DNA from: an uncultured Acidobacteriota bacterium | Lineage (GTDB): Bacteria; Acidobacteriota; Vicinamibacteria; Vicinamibacterales; UBA823 | DNA: 64,000 bases | NCBI GenBank assembly: GCA_913052135.1 | Contig: CAJXDY010000002.1 | Span: forward strand, 33,820 to 97,819 | Direction of reading: 5' to 3' | In this document: one piece after another, positions 43,054 to 46,500 of the stretch | How positions within the stretch are numbered: the first letter of the stretch is position 1 | How the letters are laid out: each line of letters begins with the position of its first letter | Made by a program: the position numbers and the translations under genes | Notes under the pieces: model-generated | The model's input: only the letters and a program-made list of their open reading frames with translations | Database searches by the model: none | What the model was told of the DNA's origin: nothing

Positions 43054-44658
43054 TTATGTAGCTTGACGCCGTTTTTCACTAGCGCGTTCCGCCTTCAATC
43101 GTTCCAAATCAATCTCGCTATGATCGGCGAATTTCATAGCCGCAGCGACTGCCTGATGTCCAGCTTGTTCCCCAATGAGTTTATGCATTTTTTGGCTCAC
43201 GCGTCGATAGGCAGGATGTCCTTGGGGAGCGCTACGAAGTTCGATAAGGTGCATTGCCTCGCGCGCATTCATCTGCATATAGAAACGAACTCGATAGGCC
43301 ATTGAAATGGCATACGATGCAATTCGTTCCAGGCCGCGAGTAATTAAGGTGTCGTAAAGATCGGCTGTTGTTGTCATAACCTTCTGCCAGTCGTTGAGCG
43401 CACCCACTTCTTCAATTGCGGCGGGTTCCGTGAAGCCATGGGCAGGTGTGAGGTTTTGCCACTCAAGAGTAAGGAGGCGATGTCGCTGCAAATCTCTGAA
43501 AGCCCCGTAGTCAGATAGCACATCGAATCGGTACGTCGCTCGTTCAAAGGCACGTCCAGGCTTGTGGCGGCGATTGGTTCTGTTACCCACATAGGCCTGA
43601 AGGACAGATACACGTTCCTCTGTGGACATCGACCGGGCTATCGAGAGTAGCTGATCGTCTGGCAGTCGTGACACGGCGTAGAGAGCCCCAGCCACAATTT
43701 TAATTTCACCATCGGGGTCGTAATCAGTCAGCACAACTTCGTCTTGAGGTTCCGGCTTGATTTGTTCTAGGACGGTCGCTGACAAGCGTTGCATATCGGT
43801 TTGGTTTTCCGCCAGGTACTTACTCCAGCGTTCACCGCGATCTGGTCGGTCGACTCGGGTTAAGAATGCGGGAATCACCTTACGTAGTTCTGTGAGCATT
43901 GCGGCAGCGTACTGCTGAGCCTCAGCCAGCGGGTTTGCACGCATCTGTAGAAGCAAGGCCTCGTACGCCTGTCCCGAGCCGTAGATACCAACGTTCGACT
44001 GGGTTGCTGCCGGTAACAGGCCACGAAGTGTATCGAGTGCTTTAGCTCTGATTGCTGCTCGGTAAACACCATCGGAATCGCTTGTCGCCTTCGGAAATCG
44101 TTTTCGATAATGAGCCTGCATAGGTTCTAGCCAGTGTGCATAGGTTGCGAAAGCAGCATCGAGCGTTTCGGTATAGTGCTTCCAGAGCACTGGATCTTTA
44201 ATTTCCTCAGGAATCAGGTATTTCCAGCGACCGTTCGACTGATCAGTGTATGGCACGTAACGTGTCGATTGCTCTAGGTACGACATGAGTCGCCCGCGTT
44301 CGAGAATCTTAGTTAAAATATTAGAAGCACCTTCACAGGCGATGTGGGCACCACCCAGTTGTGCCACTGAATCATCCCCGTAATCAGAGAACACCCGCGT
44401 ATAGAGTTTCTCAGCACGTTCGACACCAACTTCTGAAGTTGTTACGGCAGTCGCTGCCATGTCGCTAGAGAACTCGTCCAAAAAAAGACGGCGCAGGGAT
44501 TTTGCGGACCGTGAATATCGCGCGAAAAGGGCACCCTTTACTACCTCAGGTAGATTCGTGATAGCAAAGACTGGGCTATCGAGATTGGTGAAATATGGCG
44601 TTAGAGTTAGGCGTTCATTGGCCGTAAATTCTTCGTGGCCAGAAAGTACGTTAGGCAC
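43054..44658 (-). CDS. thyX: Flavin-dependent thymidylate synthase, long tandem-domain form
   Basis: N-half ERGRLMSYLEQSTRY; C-half FRDLQRHR and LIELRS; 534 aa. Confidence 0.85.
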   Translation of the reverse strand: MPNVLSGHEEFTANERLTLTPYFTNLDSPVFAITNLPEVVKGALFARYSRSAKSLRRLFLDEFSSDMAATAVTTSEVGVERAEKLYTRVFSDYGDDSVAQLGGAHIACEGASNILTKILERGRLMSYLEQSTRYVPYTDQSNGRWKYLIPEEIKDPVLWKHYTETLDAAFATYAHWLEPMQAHYRKRFPKATSDSDGVYRAAIRAKALDTLRGLLPAATQSNVGIYGSGQAYEALLLQMRANPLAEAQQYAAAMLTELRKVIPAFLTRVDRPDRGERWSKYLAENQTDMQRLSATVLEQIKPEPQDEVVLTDYDPDGEIKIVAGALYAVSRLPDDQLLSIARSMSTEERVSVLQAYVGNRTNRRHKPGRAFERATYRFDVLSDYGAFRDLQRHRLLTLEWQNLTPAHGFTEPAAIEEVGALNDWQKVMTTTADLYDTLITRGLERIASYAISMAYRVRFYMQMNAREAMHLIELRSAPQGHPAYRRVSQKMHKLIGEQAGHQAVAAAMKFADHSEIDLERLKAERASEKRRQAT

Positions 44659-44764
44659 AGAGATATAATAAACTCGGTACCCCGCGTATGGTCAATTGTT
44701 CTGCTTCAATCGTGCTAACCTACGCTCGATTACAGTGTGTCTGGATACATCGACCGAATGTCCT

Positions 44765-45226
44765 ATGAGTGTTACTTTTTGTTACAAGATCGAGGTGCGT
44801 TTTCGCGATTGCGATGAATTTGGTCATGTGAATAACGCCGTATATTTCACATATCTTGAAGAAACCCGCCATGTCTACCTCAGACATCTAGCTAGTCAAG
44901 GTGTATCCAGTAACGCCGCTGATGAAAAACTGCCGCACGGGTTTGTGCTCGTCCGGACCGAATGCGATTTTCTCTCCGAGGCATTACCAGGCGACTGGCT
45001 TGAGATTCAGTTGCGTGTATCGAAAATCGGTCGGTCAAGCTTCGGATACGAATACGAAATAATGAATACTTCCAAGAGTCAGTTGGTAGCACGGGCGAAA
45101 TCAGTTCACGTAGCTTACGATCGCATAAAGAAACGGTCGCAACCGATCCCCGAAGAGTTCCGTGCGGTCCTTGAACGTGCGATGCAAGGATTATCTGAAA
45201 CATCGATTGATGTTGTTTCGGACTGA
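44765..45226 (+). CDS. Acyl-CoA thioesterase (4HBT/YbgC hotdog family)
   Basis: VRFRDCDEFGHVNNAVYFTYLEETR. Confidence 0.88.
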   Translation: MSVTFCYKIEVRFRDCDEFGHVNNAVYFTYLEETRHVYLRHLASQGVSSNAADEKLPHGFVLVRTECDFLSEALPGDWLEIQLRVSKIGRSSFGYEYEIMNTSKSQLVARAKSVHVAYDRIKKRSQPIPEEFRAVLERAMQGLSETSIDVVSD

Positions 45227-45257
45227 CAAATTTCCATTGCACAAGGAGACAGCAGGC

Positions 45258-45473
45258 ATGATTTACATATTTGGCAAGGATACGTGACCGTACACAGTAG
45301 CTGCCCGTGAAAATTACGAAAGGCAGCAGATTGCTGTTGATTACATCAACGTAAAGCAGGATCCTGCGGGTCTAGAACGTATGCTCAAGTATAGCAATGG
45401 TCGTCGCGATGTTCCTGTAATTGTAGACGACGGCACGGTGACGATTGGATACGGTGGAAGCTGAAAGGTTTAA
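45258..45473 (+). CDS. UXX-star-type glutaredoxin-like selenoprotein with two in-frame UGA (Sec10, Sec69), 71 aa
   Basis: AGGAGA SD, then MIYIFGKDT-U-PYTVAARENYERQQIAVDYINVKQDPAGLERMLKYSNGRRDVPVIVDDGTVTIGYGGS-U-KV-stop(TAA); UGA at 45285-87 and 45462-64; SECIS-like hairpin after each. Confidence 0.88.
45300..45327 (+). promoter_or_regulatory. SECIS-like hairpin for UGA 45285
   Basis: GCTGCC/GGCAGC lower stem, CGT/ACG upper stem, loop GAAAATT starting 21 nt after the UGA. Confidence 0.6.
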
Positions 45474-45479
45474 TTGTGA

Positions 45480-45495
45480 TCTGCCGGTCGGCAGA
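45480..45495 (+). promoter_or_regulatory. SECIS-like hairpin for UGA 45462 (in the 3' UTR)
   Basis: TCTGCC-GGTC-GGCAGA; loop starts 21 nt after the UGA and has the GGUC core of the E. coli fdhF SECIS loop. Confidence 0.72.
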
Positions 45496-45612
45496 ACTAG
45501 TCAAGTTGGTAAAGTGGTTTCATGCGTGCATTGTTTAGTAAGGCAAGGCGTCGAAAGTCTTGCCCTCATTTGACTGAATTGCGGTCGTGTTATTCGGTAG
45601 ACATGGTTGGTG

Positions 45613-46431
45613 ATGCGGCATGAGTTAATTTTCGTCGGCAATCCGGGGCCGCTTACAGGAGCTGGTAACAATACTTATTTGCTGCCAGGTCTGGAACCAA
45701 CCCTGATTGATGCCGGAACAGGGCAAGACACGCATCTTCTTGCGCTTGCAGCCAAGTTAGACGAGTCGAATGCGAGATTATCCCAAAAAAAAGACTTACT
45801 CGCCAAGGTCCTAGTTACCCATTGCCATTCTGACCACGTATCTGGGGTTCCCGCAATTGCGGAACGATGGCCATTAGCTGTTTTTGCCAAAATGCCATGG
45901 AAGGATCAGGATGAGCAGTACCGTGTTTCTTGGAAGGCTTTGGAAGACGGCGATCTTATTCCAGCTGGTGATTCCACACTCCAGGTTGTCCACACGCCAG
46001 GTCACTCGCCGGATCACCTATGTTTCTTTGATCGCGAATCAGGGACGTTGTTCTCAGGCGATCTCGTTATCGCGGGAAGTAGTGTAGTGATTCCAGCTAG
46101 CGCTGGTGGAGATCTGGTGGCGTACCTGAATTCCTTGCGCTTAGTTTTATCGATGAAACCAGCTTGTCTGCTTCCAGCACATGGTTGCTCCATCGACGAA
46201 CCAAATACGGTCATTCAAGCGTATCTAGATCATCGTCAGCAACGTGAAGATCAAGTTATTGCAGCACTTCGACAAGGCGCGAAAACGATCGATGACATTA
46301 TCAGCAATGTGTACGAACCATTGGACTCTGGGTTAATCCGTGCGGCTCAGGAGAACGTACTGGCTCATTTGACGAAGCTCGTGTCTGAAGGTCGAGCTGC
46401 ACATGATGGTACGGTATGGTGGATGTCATGA
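45613..46431 (+). CDS. MBL-fold metallo-hydrolase (LACTB2-like, C-terminal winged helix)
   Basis: GNNTY, THCHSDH, TPGHSPDH, SGDL, PAHG, YLDHRQQRE. Confidence 0.88.
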   Translation: MRHELIFVGNPGPLTGAGNNTYLLPGLEPTLIDAGTGQDTHLLALAAKLDESNARLSQKKDLLAKVLVTHCHSDHVSGVPAIAERWPLAVFAKMPWKDQDEQYRVSWKALEDGDLIPAGDSTLQVVHTPGHSPDHLCFFDRESGTLFSGDLVIAGSSVVIPASAGGDLVAYLNSLRLVLSMKPACLLPAHGCSIDEPNTVIQAYLDHRQQREDQVIAALRQGAKTIDDIISNVYEPLDSGLIRAAQENVLAHLTKLVSEGRAAHDGTVWWMS

Positions 46432-46500
46432 GATGGTTTTGCTTGGATTCAAGTCTTCTGTCCTCACTGACTTTAGTAAAGACACTAGGTAGGTTCACAA

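What the first reader, a model, noticed from the sequence alone, without database searches (positions are those of the whole stretch)
45285..45500. Twin SECIS-like hairpins with identical 21-nt UGA-to-loop spacing, one coding and one in the 3' UTR
Seen: after UGA1 (ends 45287), GCTGCC(45300-05) pairs with GGCAGC(45322-27), enclosing CGT/ACG and a loop GAAAATT that starts at 45309. After UGA2 (ends 45464), TCTGCC(45480-85) pairs with GGCAGA(45490-95) around loop GGTC, which starts at 45486. Both loops begin with G exactly 21 nt after the UGA, and both stems share a CTGCC/GGCAG core. Established: bacterial SECIS elements lie just 3' of the UGA with a G at the start of the apical loop, and the E. 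coli fdhF loop contains GGUC. Inference: because Sec69 is third-last, its SECIS falls beyond the stop codon and is free of coding constraint. The pair is a natural comparison of constrained versus unconstrained SECIS in one mRNA and may tune the relative read-through of the two UGAs.
Basis: partly seen in the sequence, partly recalled or inferred. Interest (0 to 1): 0.7.

Follow-up and report, generated by a model that had tools for sequence, protein, structure and literature searches.

The report
Two SECIS hairpins of a double-selenocysteine glutaredoxin
A 71-residue glutaredoxin-like gene of the known "UXX-star" family holds two selenocysteine UGA codons, each followed by its own recoding hairpin, and the second hairpin lies after the stop codon; this is a clean but expected example of known bacterial selenocysteine decoding.

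Summary
The gene at 45258-45473 (+) encodes MIYIFGKDT-U-PYT...GYGGS-U-KV*. It scores 117 bits against NCBIfam NF041114, "UXX-star selenoprotein family 1" (cut-off 72), a published two-Sec family.

Hairpin 2 (45480-45495, UCUGCC-GGUC-GGCAGA) lies wholly in the 3' UTR. Of 135 distinct homologues, 127 have a stem of at least 5 bp in the same place, with the loop starting 16-23 nt after the UGA (mode 18). All 7 model pairs show compensatory changes, in two separate samples. There are 47 different loop-closing 5-mers and no T-run. It is a genuine bacterial SECIS outside the ORF.

Hairpin 1 (45300-45327) is tied to UGA. All 80 distinct Sec forms read CG[U/G]G at +18 after the codon. Cys forms mostly use CGC and lose the stem.

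The genome has tRNA-Sec, SelA and SelD. SelB is missing from this 91%-complete assembly.

The "identical 21-nt spacing" is not conserved and depends on how hairpin 1 is drawn. Tuning of read-through is untested. Verdict: known kind, modest interest.

The parts
45243..45248 (+). Shine-Dalgarno-like AAGGAG, 9 nt before the ATG
   Evidence: Read directly from the sequence.
45258..45473 (+). Gene for a 71-aa glutaredoxin-like double selenoprotein (U10 in U-P-Y-T, U69 in G-G-S-U-K-V-stop). Member of UXX-star selenoprotein family 1.
   Evidence: Translation with TGA=U. NF041114 117.2 bits against cut-off 72, NF041212 93.4 against 66. Pfam Glutaredoxin. A Cys paralogue in the same genome aligns Cys to both U positions.
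45285..45287 (+). UGA1, codon 10, read as selenocysteine
   Evidence: It aligns with UGA in 83 and with UGC/UGU in 52 of the 135 distinct homologues.
45300..45327 (+). SECIS 1, inside the ORF. Outer stem GCUGCC (45300-05) pairs with GGCAGC (45322-27) and encloses CGUGAAAAUUACGAAA. The conserved CGUGA is at 45306-45310, starting 18 nt after UGA1.
   Evidence: Fold at -15.4 kcal/mol, z = -3.1. The 6/6 stem is present in 9 of 11 Sec forms against 1 of 28 Cys forms in the first sample. CG[U/G]G at +18 occurs in 80 of 80 Sec forms, while Cys forms mostly have CGC. A stem of at least 4 bp closes at +18 in 60/80 Sec forms against 17/52 Cys forms, Fisher p = 1.5e-6.
45462..45464 (+). UGA2, codon 69, read as selenocysteine, third residue from the end
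   Evidence: UGA stands at this position in all 135 distinct homologues. It is always followed by x-[V/I/A] and an in-frame stop exactly 3 codons later. The Val codon uses all four synonymous third bases.
45471..45473 (+). True stop codon, TAA
   Evidence: Among homologues the stop is TGA in 75, TAG in 45 and TAA in 15.
45480..45495 (+). SECIS 2, wholly in the 3' UTR. Stem UCUGCC/GGCAGA with loop GGUC (45486-89). The loop starts 21 nt after UGA2 and 12 nt after the stop codon.
   Evidence: In 127 of 135 homologues a stem of at least 5 bp sits at the same place, against 6% of other TGAs in the same loci. Compensatory changes occur at 7 of 7 pairs, with 93-96% of cells paired against 31-49% when the partner is slid. 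No T-run follows, and the terminator scan does not call it.

Best explanation
The gene at 45258-45473 encodes a small glutaredoxin-fold selenoprotein of the UXX-star family 1. It has two selenocysteines. Each UGA is recoded by its own bacterial-type SECIS hairpin, placed a fixed short distance downstream.

Inferred mechanism, by analogy with E. coli: SelB carrying Sec-tRNA(Sec) binds the apical part of the hairpin, a G followed by U or G about 20 nt after the UGA. It delivers the tRNA when the UGA reaches the A site.

SECIS 1 (45300-45327) must also encode A-A-R-E-N-Y-E-R-Q. It is made from GCY-GCC and (A)GG-CAG-C codons, with the Arg codon held as CGU.

SECIS 2 (45480-45495) serves Sec69. Only two codons and the stop follow that UGA, so the hairpin lies entirely in the 3' UTR. 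There it is a compact G+C-rich stem with a GGUC loop, the same loop as E. coli fdhF. It evolves freely by compensatory change.

Shown here: the family membership, the hairpins, their conservation and covariation, and the link between SECIS 1 and UGA rather than UGC/UGU. Inferred: SelB binding and actual Sec insertion.
For: - Family: NF041114 117 bits against a cut-off of 72. The family is listed in a 2026 review as a two-Sec UxxT protein.
- Sec trait in the same genome: tRNA-Sec; SelD at 352 bits, itself with an in-frame TGA; SelA at 536 bits; a second Grx-like gene with U-E-A-C.
- A MAG whose copy of this protein is 94% identical has a full-length SelB at 359 bits.
- UGA2 is translated. In 135 of 135 homologues the stop lies exactly 3 codons later. 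The middle codon is Val with all four synonymous endings. A Cys paralogue aligns Cys to U69.
- SECIS 2 frequency: 41 of 49, then 110 of 135, distinct sites have a stem of at least 6 bp; 127 of 135 have at least 5 bp. The loop starts 16-23 nt after the UGA with G among the first two loop bases. The background is 2.1% and 6.0% of other TGAs in the same loci, and 0.3% in the window's own genome.
- SECIS 2 covariation: 7 of 7 pairs carry changes on both sides. The score is 0.64 and 0.84 against 0.17-0.18 in shuffles, 0 of 500 shuffles reach it, and slid controls pair at 31-49%.
- Loops are mostly GUC, GGUC, GGC, CGUGC and GGU. E. coli fdhF has UGA, 18 nt, then GGUC, and G23 and U24 are the SelB contacts.
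- SECIS 1: CG[U/G]G at +18 in 80 of 80 Sec forms. Cys forms use CGC 19, CGT 12, CGG 11 and others. Stems closing at +18 are enriched in Sec forms, p about 1e-6.
- Both elements lie within the published 16-37 nt window between UGA and apical loop.
- A bacterial SECIS placed after the stop codon works in E. coli for thioredoxin reductase, which has a penultimate Sec.
Against: - No SelB gene is found in the window's own assembly. The assembly is 91% complete, and tRNA-Sec sits 220 nt from a contig end, so this is most likely a gap.
- No Rfam family matches the region, even at E = 10.
- The covariance model built from 10 relatives finds the window's SECIS 2 in the right register but only at 6.6 bits, E = 0.37.
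- The covariation alignments were fitted to the model, so they lean towards the structure.
- The Sec-versus-Cys statistics ignore phylogeny.
- Twenty of 80 Sec forms have fewer than 4 bp closing at +18 under my rigid rule.
- Only three homologues with Cys at the C-terminal position were available, and one of them has a hairpin in the same place.
- There is no expression, Se-labelling or binding data.
Confidence: 0.88

Rival explanations
1. Hairpin 1 forms the inner CGU/ACG helix, so both loops present a G exactly 21 nt after their UGA. This matched spacing and the shared CUGCC/GGCAG core are selected to balance decoding of the two UGAs.
For: In the window both drawings give 21 nt. An inner helix CGUG/(U/C)A(C/U)G can form in several relatives, with UAC-to-CAU changes that keep the pairing. 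Other SECIS-like loops in the window's own genome sit rather far out: GUU 23 nt after the UGA in the C38 gene.
Against: The SECIS 2 distance varies from 16 to 23 nt across 135 homologues, mode 18, and is 21 in only 7. In 39 Sec forms SECIS 1 is a 4-5 bp GGCC/GGCC stem with a 5-nt CGUGA loop that starts at +18. The inner helix cannot exist there, yet CG[U/G]G is invariant. The inner helix would bury the G-U that matches the SelB contacts G23 and U24 of E. coli. The shared core is absent from most relatives.
Confidence: 0.1
2. UGA2 is the real stop codon. Hairpin 2 is a transcription terminator or an mRNA-stabilising 3' hairpin, and the protein has a single Sec (U10).
For: A G+C-rich hairpin shortly after a stop codon is the usual place for a terminator. 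A few homologues have a U-rich tract after the stem (L041, L054).
Against: No T-run follows the window's hairpin, and the terminator scan does not call it. In 135 of 135 homologues a second in-frame stop lies exactly 9 nt after UGA2, with a conserved Val codon that varies at its synonymous site. Cys aligns to this position in a paralogue. The curated family model includes the U-x-x tail. The hairpin keeps a fixed distance to UGA2 and a G-rich loop start, which a terminator would not need.
Confidence: 0.04
3. The hairpins are chance inverted repeats with no function.
For: Hairpin 2 is short, and its folding energy is not unusual against shuffles of a 49-69 nt piece.
Against: The positional background rates are 0.3% and 1.7%. 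The hairpin is conserved with compensatory change in more than 100 genomes.
Confidence: 0.01

Closest known systems
UXX-star selenoprotein family 1 (NCBIfam NF041114), also called 'Distant Grx-like protein 1' (Zhang & Gladyshev 2008; Haft & Tolstoy 2025, as listed in PMC13188914)
   Same: Full-length match above the curated cut-off. UxxT motif near the N terminus, a second Sec third from the end, and about 70 residues.
   Different: Nothing essential; this is a member. The tail is U-K-V, whereas U-G-V, U-E-V and U-A-V dominate elsewhere.
E. coli fdhF SECIS (SelB-binding hairpin directly 3' of UGA140)
   Same: A hairpin a fixed short distance after the UGA. The loop is GGUC in both. G-U in the loop lies about 20 nt after the UGA: fdhF has 18 nt to the loop, SECIS 1 has 18 nt to CGUG, and SECIS 2 has 21 nt to GGUC.
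   Different: SECIS 2 lies outside the ORF, has no bulged U and is only a 6-bp stem. SECIS 1 has a 16-nt loop region rather than a tetraloop. No Rfam model matches either.
Engineered bacterial SECIS placed after the stop codon to express mammalian thioredoxin reductase in E. coli (PMC10778597, PMC11431864)
   Same: Sec sits within a few codons of the C terminus, the stop codon lies between the UGA and the hairpin, and the SECIS is untranslated.
   Different: That arrangement is man-made with the fdhF hairpin. Here it is natural, and it is conserved in at least 135 distinct genes from many genomes.
Archaeal and eukaryotic 3'-UTR SECIS elements
   Same: Located in the 3' UTR and free of coding constraint.
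   Different: Those act at long range with a different fold and different factors (SBP2/EFSec). This one is a simple hairpin that must stay about 20 nt from its UGA. It works like a bacterial SECIS and is in the UTR only because of where the Sec codon sits.

Membership tests
[quoted passage not shown] | Whole-protein HMM score above the curated cut-off | tested here: met
   117.2 bits against 72. The parent model NF041212 scores 93.4 against 66.
[quoted passage not shown] | Sec followed by exactly two residues and a stop (U-x-x-star) | tested here: met
   U69-K-V-TAA. The same layout is found in 135 of 135 homologues.
[quoted passage not shown] | Glutaredoxin fold with a U/C-x-x-T redox motif near the N terminus | tested here: met
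   Pfam PF00462 41.5 bits. The motif is U-P-Y-T. The structure was not modelled.
Bacterial SECIS element (bSECISearch-type definition) | Hairpin immediately 3' of an in-frame UGA that aligns with Sec or Cys in homologues | tested here: met
Bacterial SECIS element (bSECISearch-type definition) | 16-37 nt between the UGA and the apical loop (PMC10778597) | tested here: met
SECIS 2 is 21 nt.
Bacterial SECIS element (bSECISearch-type definition) | Conserved G, usually followed by U, at the start of the loop | tested here: met
   SECIS 2 has GGUC. Family loops are GUC, GGUC, GGC, CGUGC and similar. SECIS 1 has CG[U/G]G in 80 of 80 Sec forms.
Bacterial SECIS element (bSECISearch-type definition) | Structure conserved across UGA-containing homologues and lost in Cys homologues | tested here: met
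   SECIS 2 shows covariation at 7 of 7 pairs. SECIS 1 differs between Sec and Cys forms. For SECIS 2 the Cys contrast rests on only 3 sequences, 2 of them without a hairpin.
Bacterial SECIS element (bSECISearch-type definition) | Sec-decoding machinery in the genome (selA, selB, selC, selD) | tested here: inconclusive
   selC, selA and selD are present. selB is absent from the 91%-complete assembly but present in the MAG whose copy of this protein is 94% identical.
Bacterial SECIS element (bSECISearch-type definition) | SelB binding and SECIS-dependent Sec insertion | not testable with these tools
   Needs gel shift, reporter or 75Se experiments.
Rfam SECIS families | Covariance-model match | tested here: not met
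   No match to any of the 4,227 families at E up to 10 in 44500-46500.
Intrinsic (Rho-independent) terminator | G+C-rich hairpin followed directly by a T-run | tested here: not met
   The sequence after the stem is ACTAGTCAAGTTGG. The scan calls only a different site at 45571-45587.

The most novel reading that the evidence does not exclude
The U-x-x-stop layout may itself be an adaptation. It pushes the SECIS out of the ORF, so the ribosome terminates before it has fully unwound the hairpin. SelB and the SECIS could then stay assembled for successive ribosomes. In the 56% of members whose real stop is also UGA (9 nt after the Sec UGA), the same hairpin would define by distance alone which UGA is Sec and which is stop. 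The family would then be a natural system for measuring the positional resolution of bacterial SECIS action, and for comparing a coding-constrained with an unconstrained element in one mRNA.
Probability: 0.1. Interest if true: 0.55.

Novelty: new member of a known kind. Interest (0 to 1): 0.3.

Why it matters
[quoted passage not shown] This gene family is a widespread natural exception. It was found in 108 of 301 sampled genomes of the window's class. The element for the C-terminal Sec is always untranslated.

Because the same mRNA often also carries a translated SECIS, the family shows what coding constraint does to a SECIS. The translated one is nearly frozen and pins a synonymous Arg codon to CGU or CGG. 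The untranslated one explores dozens of stems.

This is useful for SECIS prediction, which should not stop at the stop codon, and for annotation. Gene callers will truncate this gene at codon 9; table 11 lists only a 41-aa ORF ending at 45287. It is also useful for designing recombinant selenoproteins with C-terminal Sec.

It does not reveal a new mechanism.

Tried and rejected
- Rfam scan of 44500-46500 at E up to 10: nothing.
- RNAalifold on a plain MAFFT alignment of the 3' regions gave no structure, because loops of 3-5 nt and variable spacers put the arms out of register. I replaced it with a covariance-model alignment.
- The first test for SECIS 1, the fixed 6-bp GCYGCC/GGCRGC stem, separated Sec from Cys forms in the first sample (p = 2e-5). 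It failed in the enlarged sample (p = 0.6), because many Sec forms use a different stem (GGCC/GGCC with a 5-nt loop). The test was redefined as "any stem closing at +18" plus the CG[U/G]G motif.
- SelB candidates in the window's own genome turned out to be EF-Tu (two copies), TypA (two copies) and LepA. tblastn with the relative's SelB found nothing better.
- BLASTP of the protein against its Cys paralogue gave no alignment. MAFFT with family members aligned both Cys residues to the U positions.
- SelD's own SECIS did not show the same loop motif in a simple fold, so no genome-wide SelB consensus could be drawn.
- Haft & Tolstoy 2025 and Haft & Gwadz 2023 are not held in the library. I could not check whether they already describe the 3'-UTR SECIS.
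- Terminator reading rejected: there is no T-run.

Full report
**What is there.** The stretch belongs to a small gene at 45258-45473 on the + strand. An AAGGAG lies 9 nt before its ATG. Under table 11 the frame stops at 45285-87, and only a 41-aa ORF ending there is listed. Reading TGA as U gives one 71-residue product, MIYIFGKDT-U-PYTVAARENYERQQIAVDYINVKQDPAGLERMLKYSNGRRDVPVIVDDGTVTIGYGGS-U-KV, ending at TAA 45471-73. Every coordinate in the finding is correct.

**The protein is a known family.** With C in place of U it scores 117.2 bits against NCBIfam NF041114, "UXX-star selenoprotein family 1" (cut-off 72). It scores 93.4 bits against the parent model NF041212 (cut-off 66), and it matches Pfam Glutaredoxin. 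[quoted passage not shown] The review credits Zhang & Gladyshev 2008 and cites Haft & Tolstoy 2025 for the related UXX-star families. The two-Sec protein is therefore not new.

**The genome decodes Sec.** The window's genome (2.39 Mb, 104 contigs, 91% complete) has:
- a tRNA-Sec, 220 nt from the end of contig C80;
- SelD at 352 bits, itself with an in-frame TGA;
- SelA at 536 bits;
- another Grx-like gene with D-U-E-A-C;
- a Cys-only paralogue of the UXX-star family, whose two Cys align with U10 and U69.

SelB was not found. The best hits are EF-Tu, TypA and LepA. tblastn with the SelB of a relative found nothing better. That relative is a MAG whose copy of this protein is 94% identical, and it has a full-length SelB at 359 bits. 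I read the absence as an assembly gap, but it remains a gap.

**Homologues.** Two scans of the species-representative genome collection gave 57 loci. A family search over 301 genomes of the window's class found matches in 108 of them, and I fetched 100 of those places. After removing duplicates there are 135 distinct genes. All have UGA at the C-terminal position. At the N-terminal position 83 have UGA and 52 have UGC or UGU.

**UGA2 is translated.**
- In 135 of 135 genes an in-frame stop lies exactly three codons after UGA2.
- The codon before that stop is Val in 130 (GTC 64, GTG 43, GTT 17, GTA 6).
- The stop is TGA in 75, TAG in 45 and TAA in 15.

A fixed stop position and synonymous variation in the Val codon are what translation through UGA2 predicts. 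A true stop at UGA2 would not predict them.

**Hairpin 2 is a SECIS in the 3' UTR.**
- In the window it is UCUGCC-GGUC-GGCAGA at 45480-95. It begins 6 nt after the stop codon.
- Under one fixed rule, 110 of 135 distinct sequences have a stem of at least 6 bp, and 127 have at least 5 bp. The rule requires a contiguous stem, a loop of 3-5 nt that starts 16-23 nt after the UGA, and G among the first two loop bases.
- The same rule is met by 2.1% and 6.0% of the other 2,632 TGA trinucleotides in the first 57 loci. It is met by 0.31% of all TGAs in the window's genome.
- Stems differ widely, with 47 distinct loop-closing 5-mers.
- On alignments fitted to a 7-bp covariance model, all 7 pairs show changes on both sides. 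In the first sample 93.2% of cells pair, against 35-42% when the 3' partner is slid. In the second, separately collected sample 95.5% pair, against 31-49%. The covariation scores are 0.64 and 0.84, against 0.17-0.18 in shuffles, and no shuffle of 500 reaches them. These alignments lean towards the structure by construction, but the slid controls and the model-free count agree with them.
- No T-run follows the window's stem, and the terminator scan does not call it.
- Loops are mostly GUC, GGUC, GGC, CGUGC and GGU. E. coli fdhF, fetched for comparison, reads UGA, 18 nt, then GGUC. G23 and U24 of that loop are the published SelB contacts.
- A bacterial SECIS placed after the stop codon is known to work in E. 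coli for a penultimate Sec.

**Hairpin 1 is a SECIS under coding constraint.**
- In the window, GCUGCC (45300-05, codons Ala-Ala) pairs with GGCAGC (45322-27, in the Arg-Gln codons). They enclose CGUGAAAAUUACGAAA.
- In the first sample this 6/6 stem, as GCCGCC/GGCGGC elsewhere (a U-A to C-G swap), was present in 9 of 11 distinct Sec forms and 1 of 28 Cys forms.
- The larger sample showed a second architecture. In 39 Sec forms a 4-5 bp stem of GGCC/GGCC type closes a 5-nt CGUGA loop. In 21 Sec forms a stem closes a 15- or 16-nt loop, as in the window.
- Common to all 80 distinct Sec forms is CG[U/G]G starting 18 nt after UGA1. The Arg codon is CGU in 69 and CGG in 11, never CGC or CGA.
- The 52 Cys forms use CGC 19, CGT 12, CGG 11 and others.
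- A stem of at least 4 bp that closes exactly at +18 occurs in 60 of 80 Sec forms against 17 of 52 Cys forms (Fisher p = 1.5e-6, not corrected for phylogeny).

This places a G at the 20th and a U at the 21st nucleotide after the UGA, the same positions as G23 and U24 of fdhF.

**What does not hold.** The "identical 21-nt spacing" is not a family property. For SECIS 2 the distance to the loop runs from 16 to 23 nt, mode 18. It is 21 in only 7 sequences, among them the window and its two close relatives. The key G lies 18-23 nt after the UGA. For SECIS 1 the figure of 21 depends on drawing an inner CGU/ACG helix. That helix cannot exist in the 5-nt-loop architecture, and it would bury the conserved G-U. 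RNAfold gives yet another loop, AAA at +23. The shared CUGCC/GGCAG core is confined to the window's lineage. Whether the two elements differ in strength, and so tune read-through, cannot be addressed with sequence alone.

**Comparison with known systems and verdict.** Both elements work like, and meet the testable criteria of, bacterial SelB-type SECIS hairpins. They are not archaeal or eukaryotic-type UTR SECIS elements. The second is in the UTR only because its UGA is three codons from the end. The protein family is curated, and an engineered equivalent of the arrangement is textbook. The modest additions here are three:
- a demonstration, over 135 genes, that this natural 3'-UTR SECIS is conserved by covariation;
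- the synonymous-codon signature of the coding SECIS;
- the observation that 56% of members use UGA as the real stop only 9 nt after the Sec UGA, so the distance to one hairpin separates Sec from stop.

I rate this a new member of a known kind, with interest 0.3.

**Limits.** There are no expression, Se-labelling or binding data. The two Haft papers could not be read. SelB is missing from this assembly.

Noticed in passing
G000 as a whole; loci L007, L008, L020, L050, L077, L110: Taxonomic labels conflict. The two loci with 93-94% identical protein are titled Woeseiaceae MAGs. The genome search, however, puts the window's genome in the same order as MAGs titled Acidobacteriota. L110 (G227:C13) and L077 (G255:C38) have the contig lengths of L020 and L050.
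   Followed up: partly
G000 contigs C97, C58, C9, C20, C66: The MAG holds two EF-Tu genes (one split over contig ends) and two full-length TypA/BipA genes that clearly differ in sequence. This could be real paralogy or a sign of a mixed bin; contamination is estimated at 2.65%.
   Followed up: no
G000:C53:8459-9382 (-): SelD of this genome is itself a selenoprotein (…SCAG-U-ASK…, one in-frame TGA). A strong extended hairpin starts right at the UGA, at -25 kcal/mol.
   Followed up: partly
G000:C38:7321-7506 (-): A second small glutaredoxin-like selenoprotein gene (…GSD-U-EAC…). Its hairpin is GUGAAAGA-GUU-UCUUUCAC, with the loop starting 23 nt after the UGA.
   Followed up: partly
loci L072-L171 and L007-L063 (3' ends of homologues): Of the 135 distinct family members, 75 terminate with TGA only two codons after the Sec TGA. 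L115 and L116 add a further TAA or TAG directly behind that TGA, giving tandem stops.
   Followed up: partly
L168 and L163: Two homologues have CGA (Arg) or TGG (Trp) in place of UGA2. L168 still keeps the U-x-x tail frame (R-G-V-stop) and a 7-bp hairpin with a GUC loop at +18. That suggests a recent loss of Sec, or a sequencing error.
   Followed up: no
window 44696-45226 and 45607-46431: The gene sits between a thioesterase-like ORF and a metallo-beta-lactamase-fold ORF. The latter also follows the gene in the close relative L007, where the ORF begins MRHELIFV. Synteny in distant relatives was not examined.
   Followed up: no
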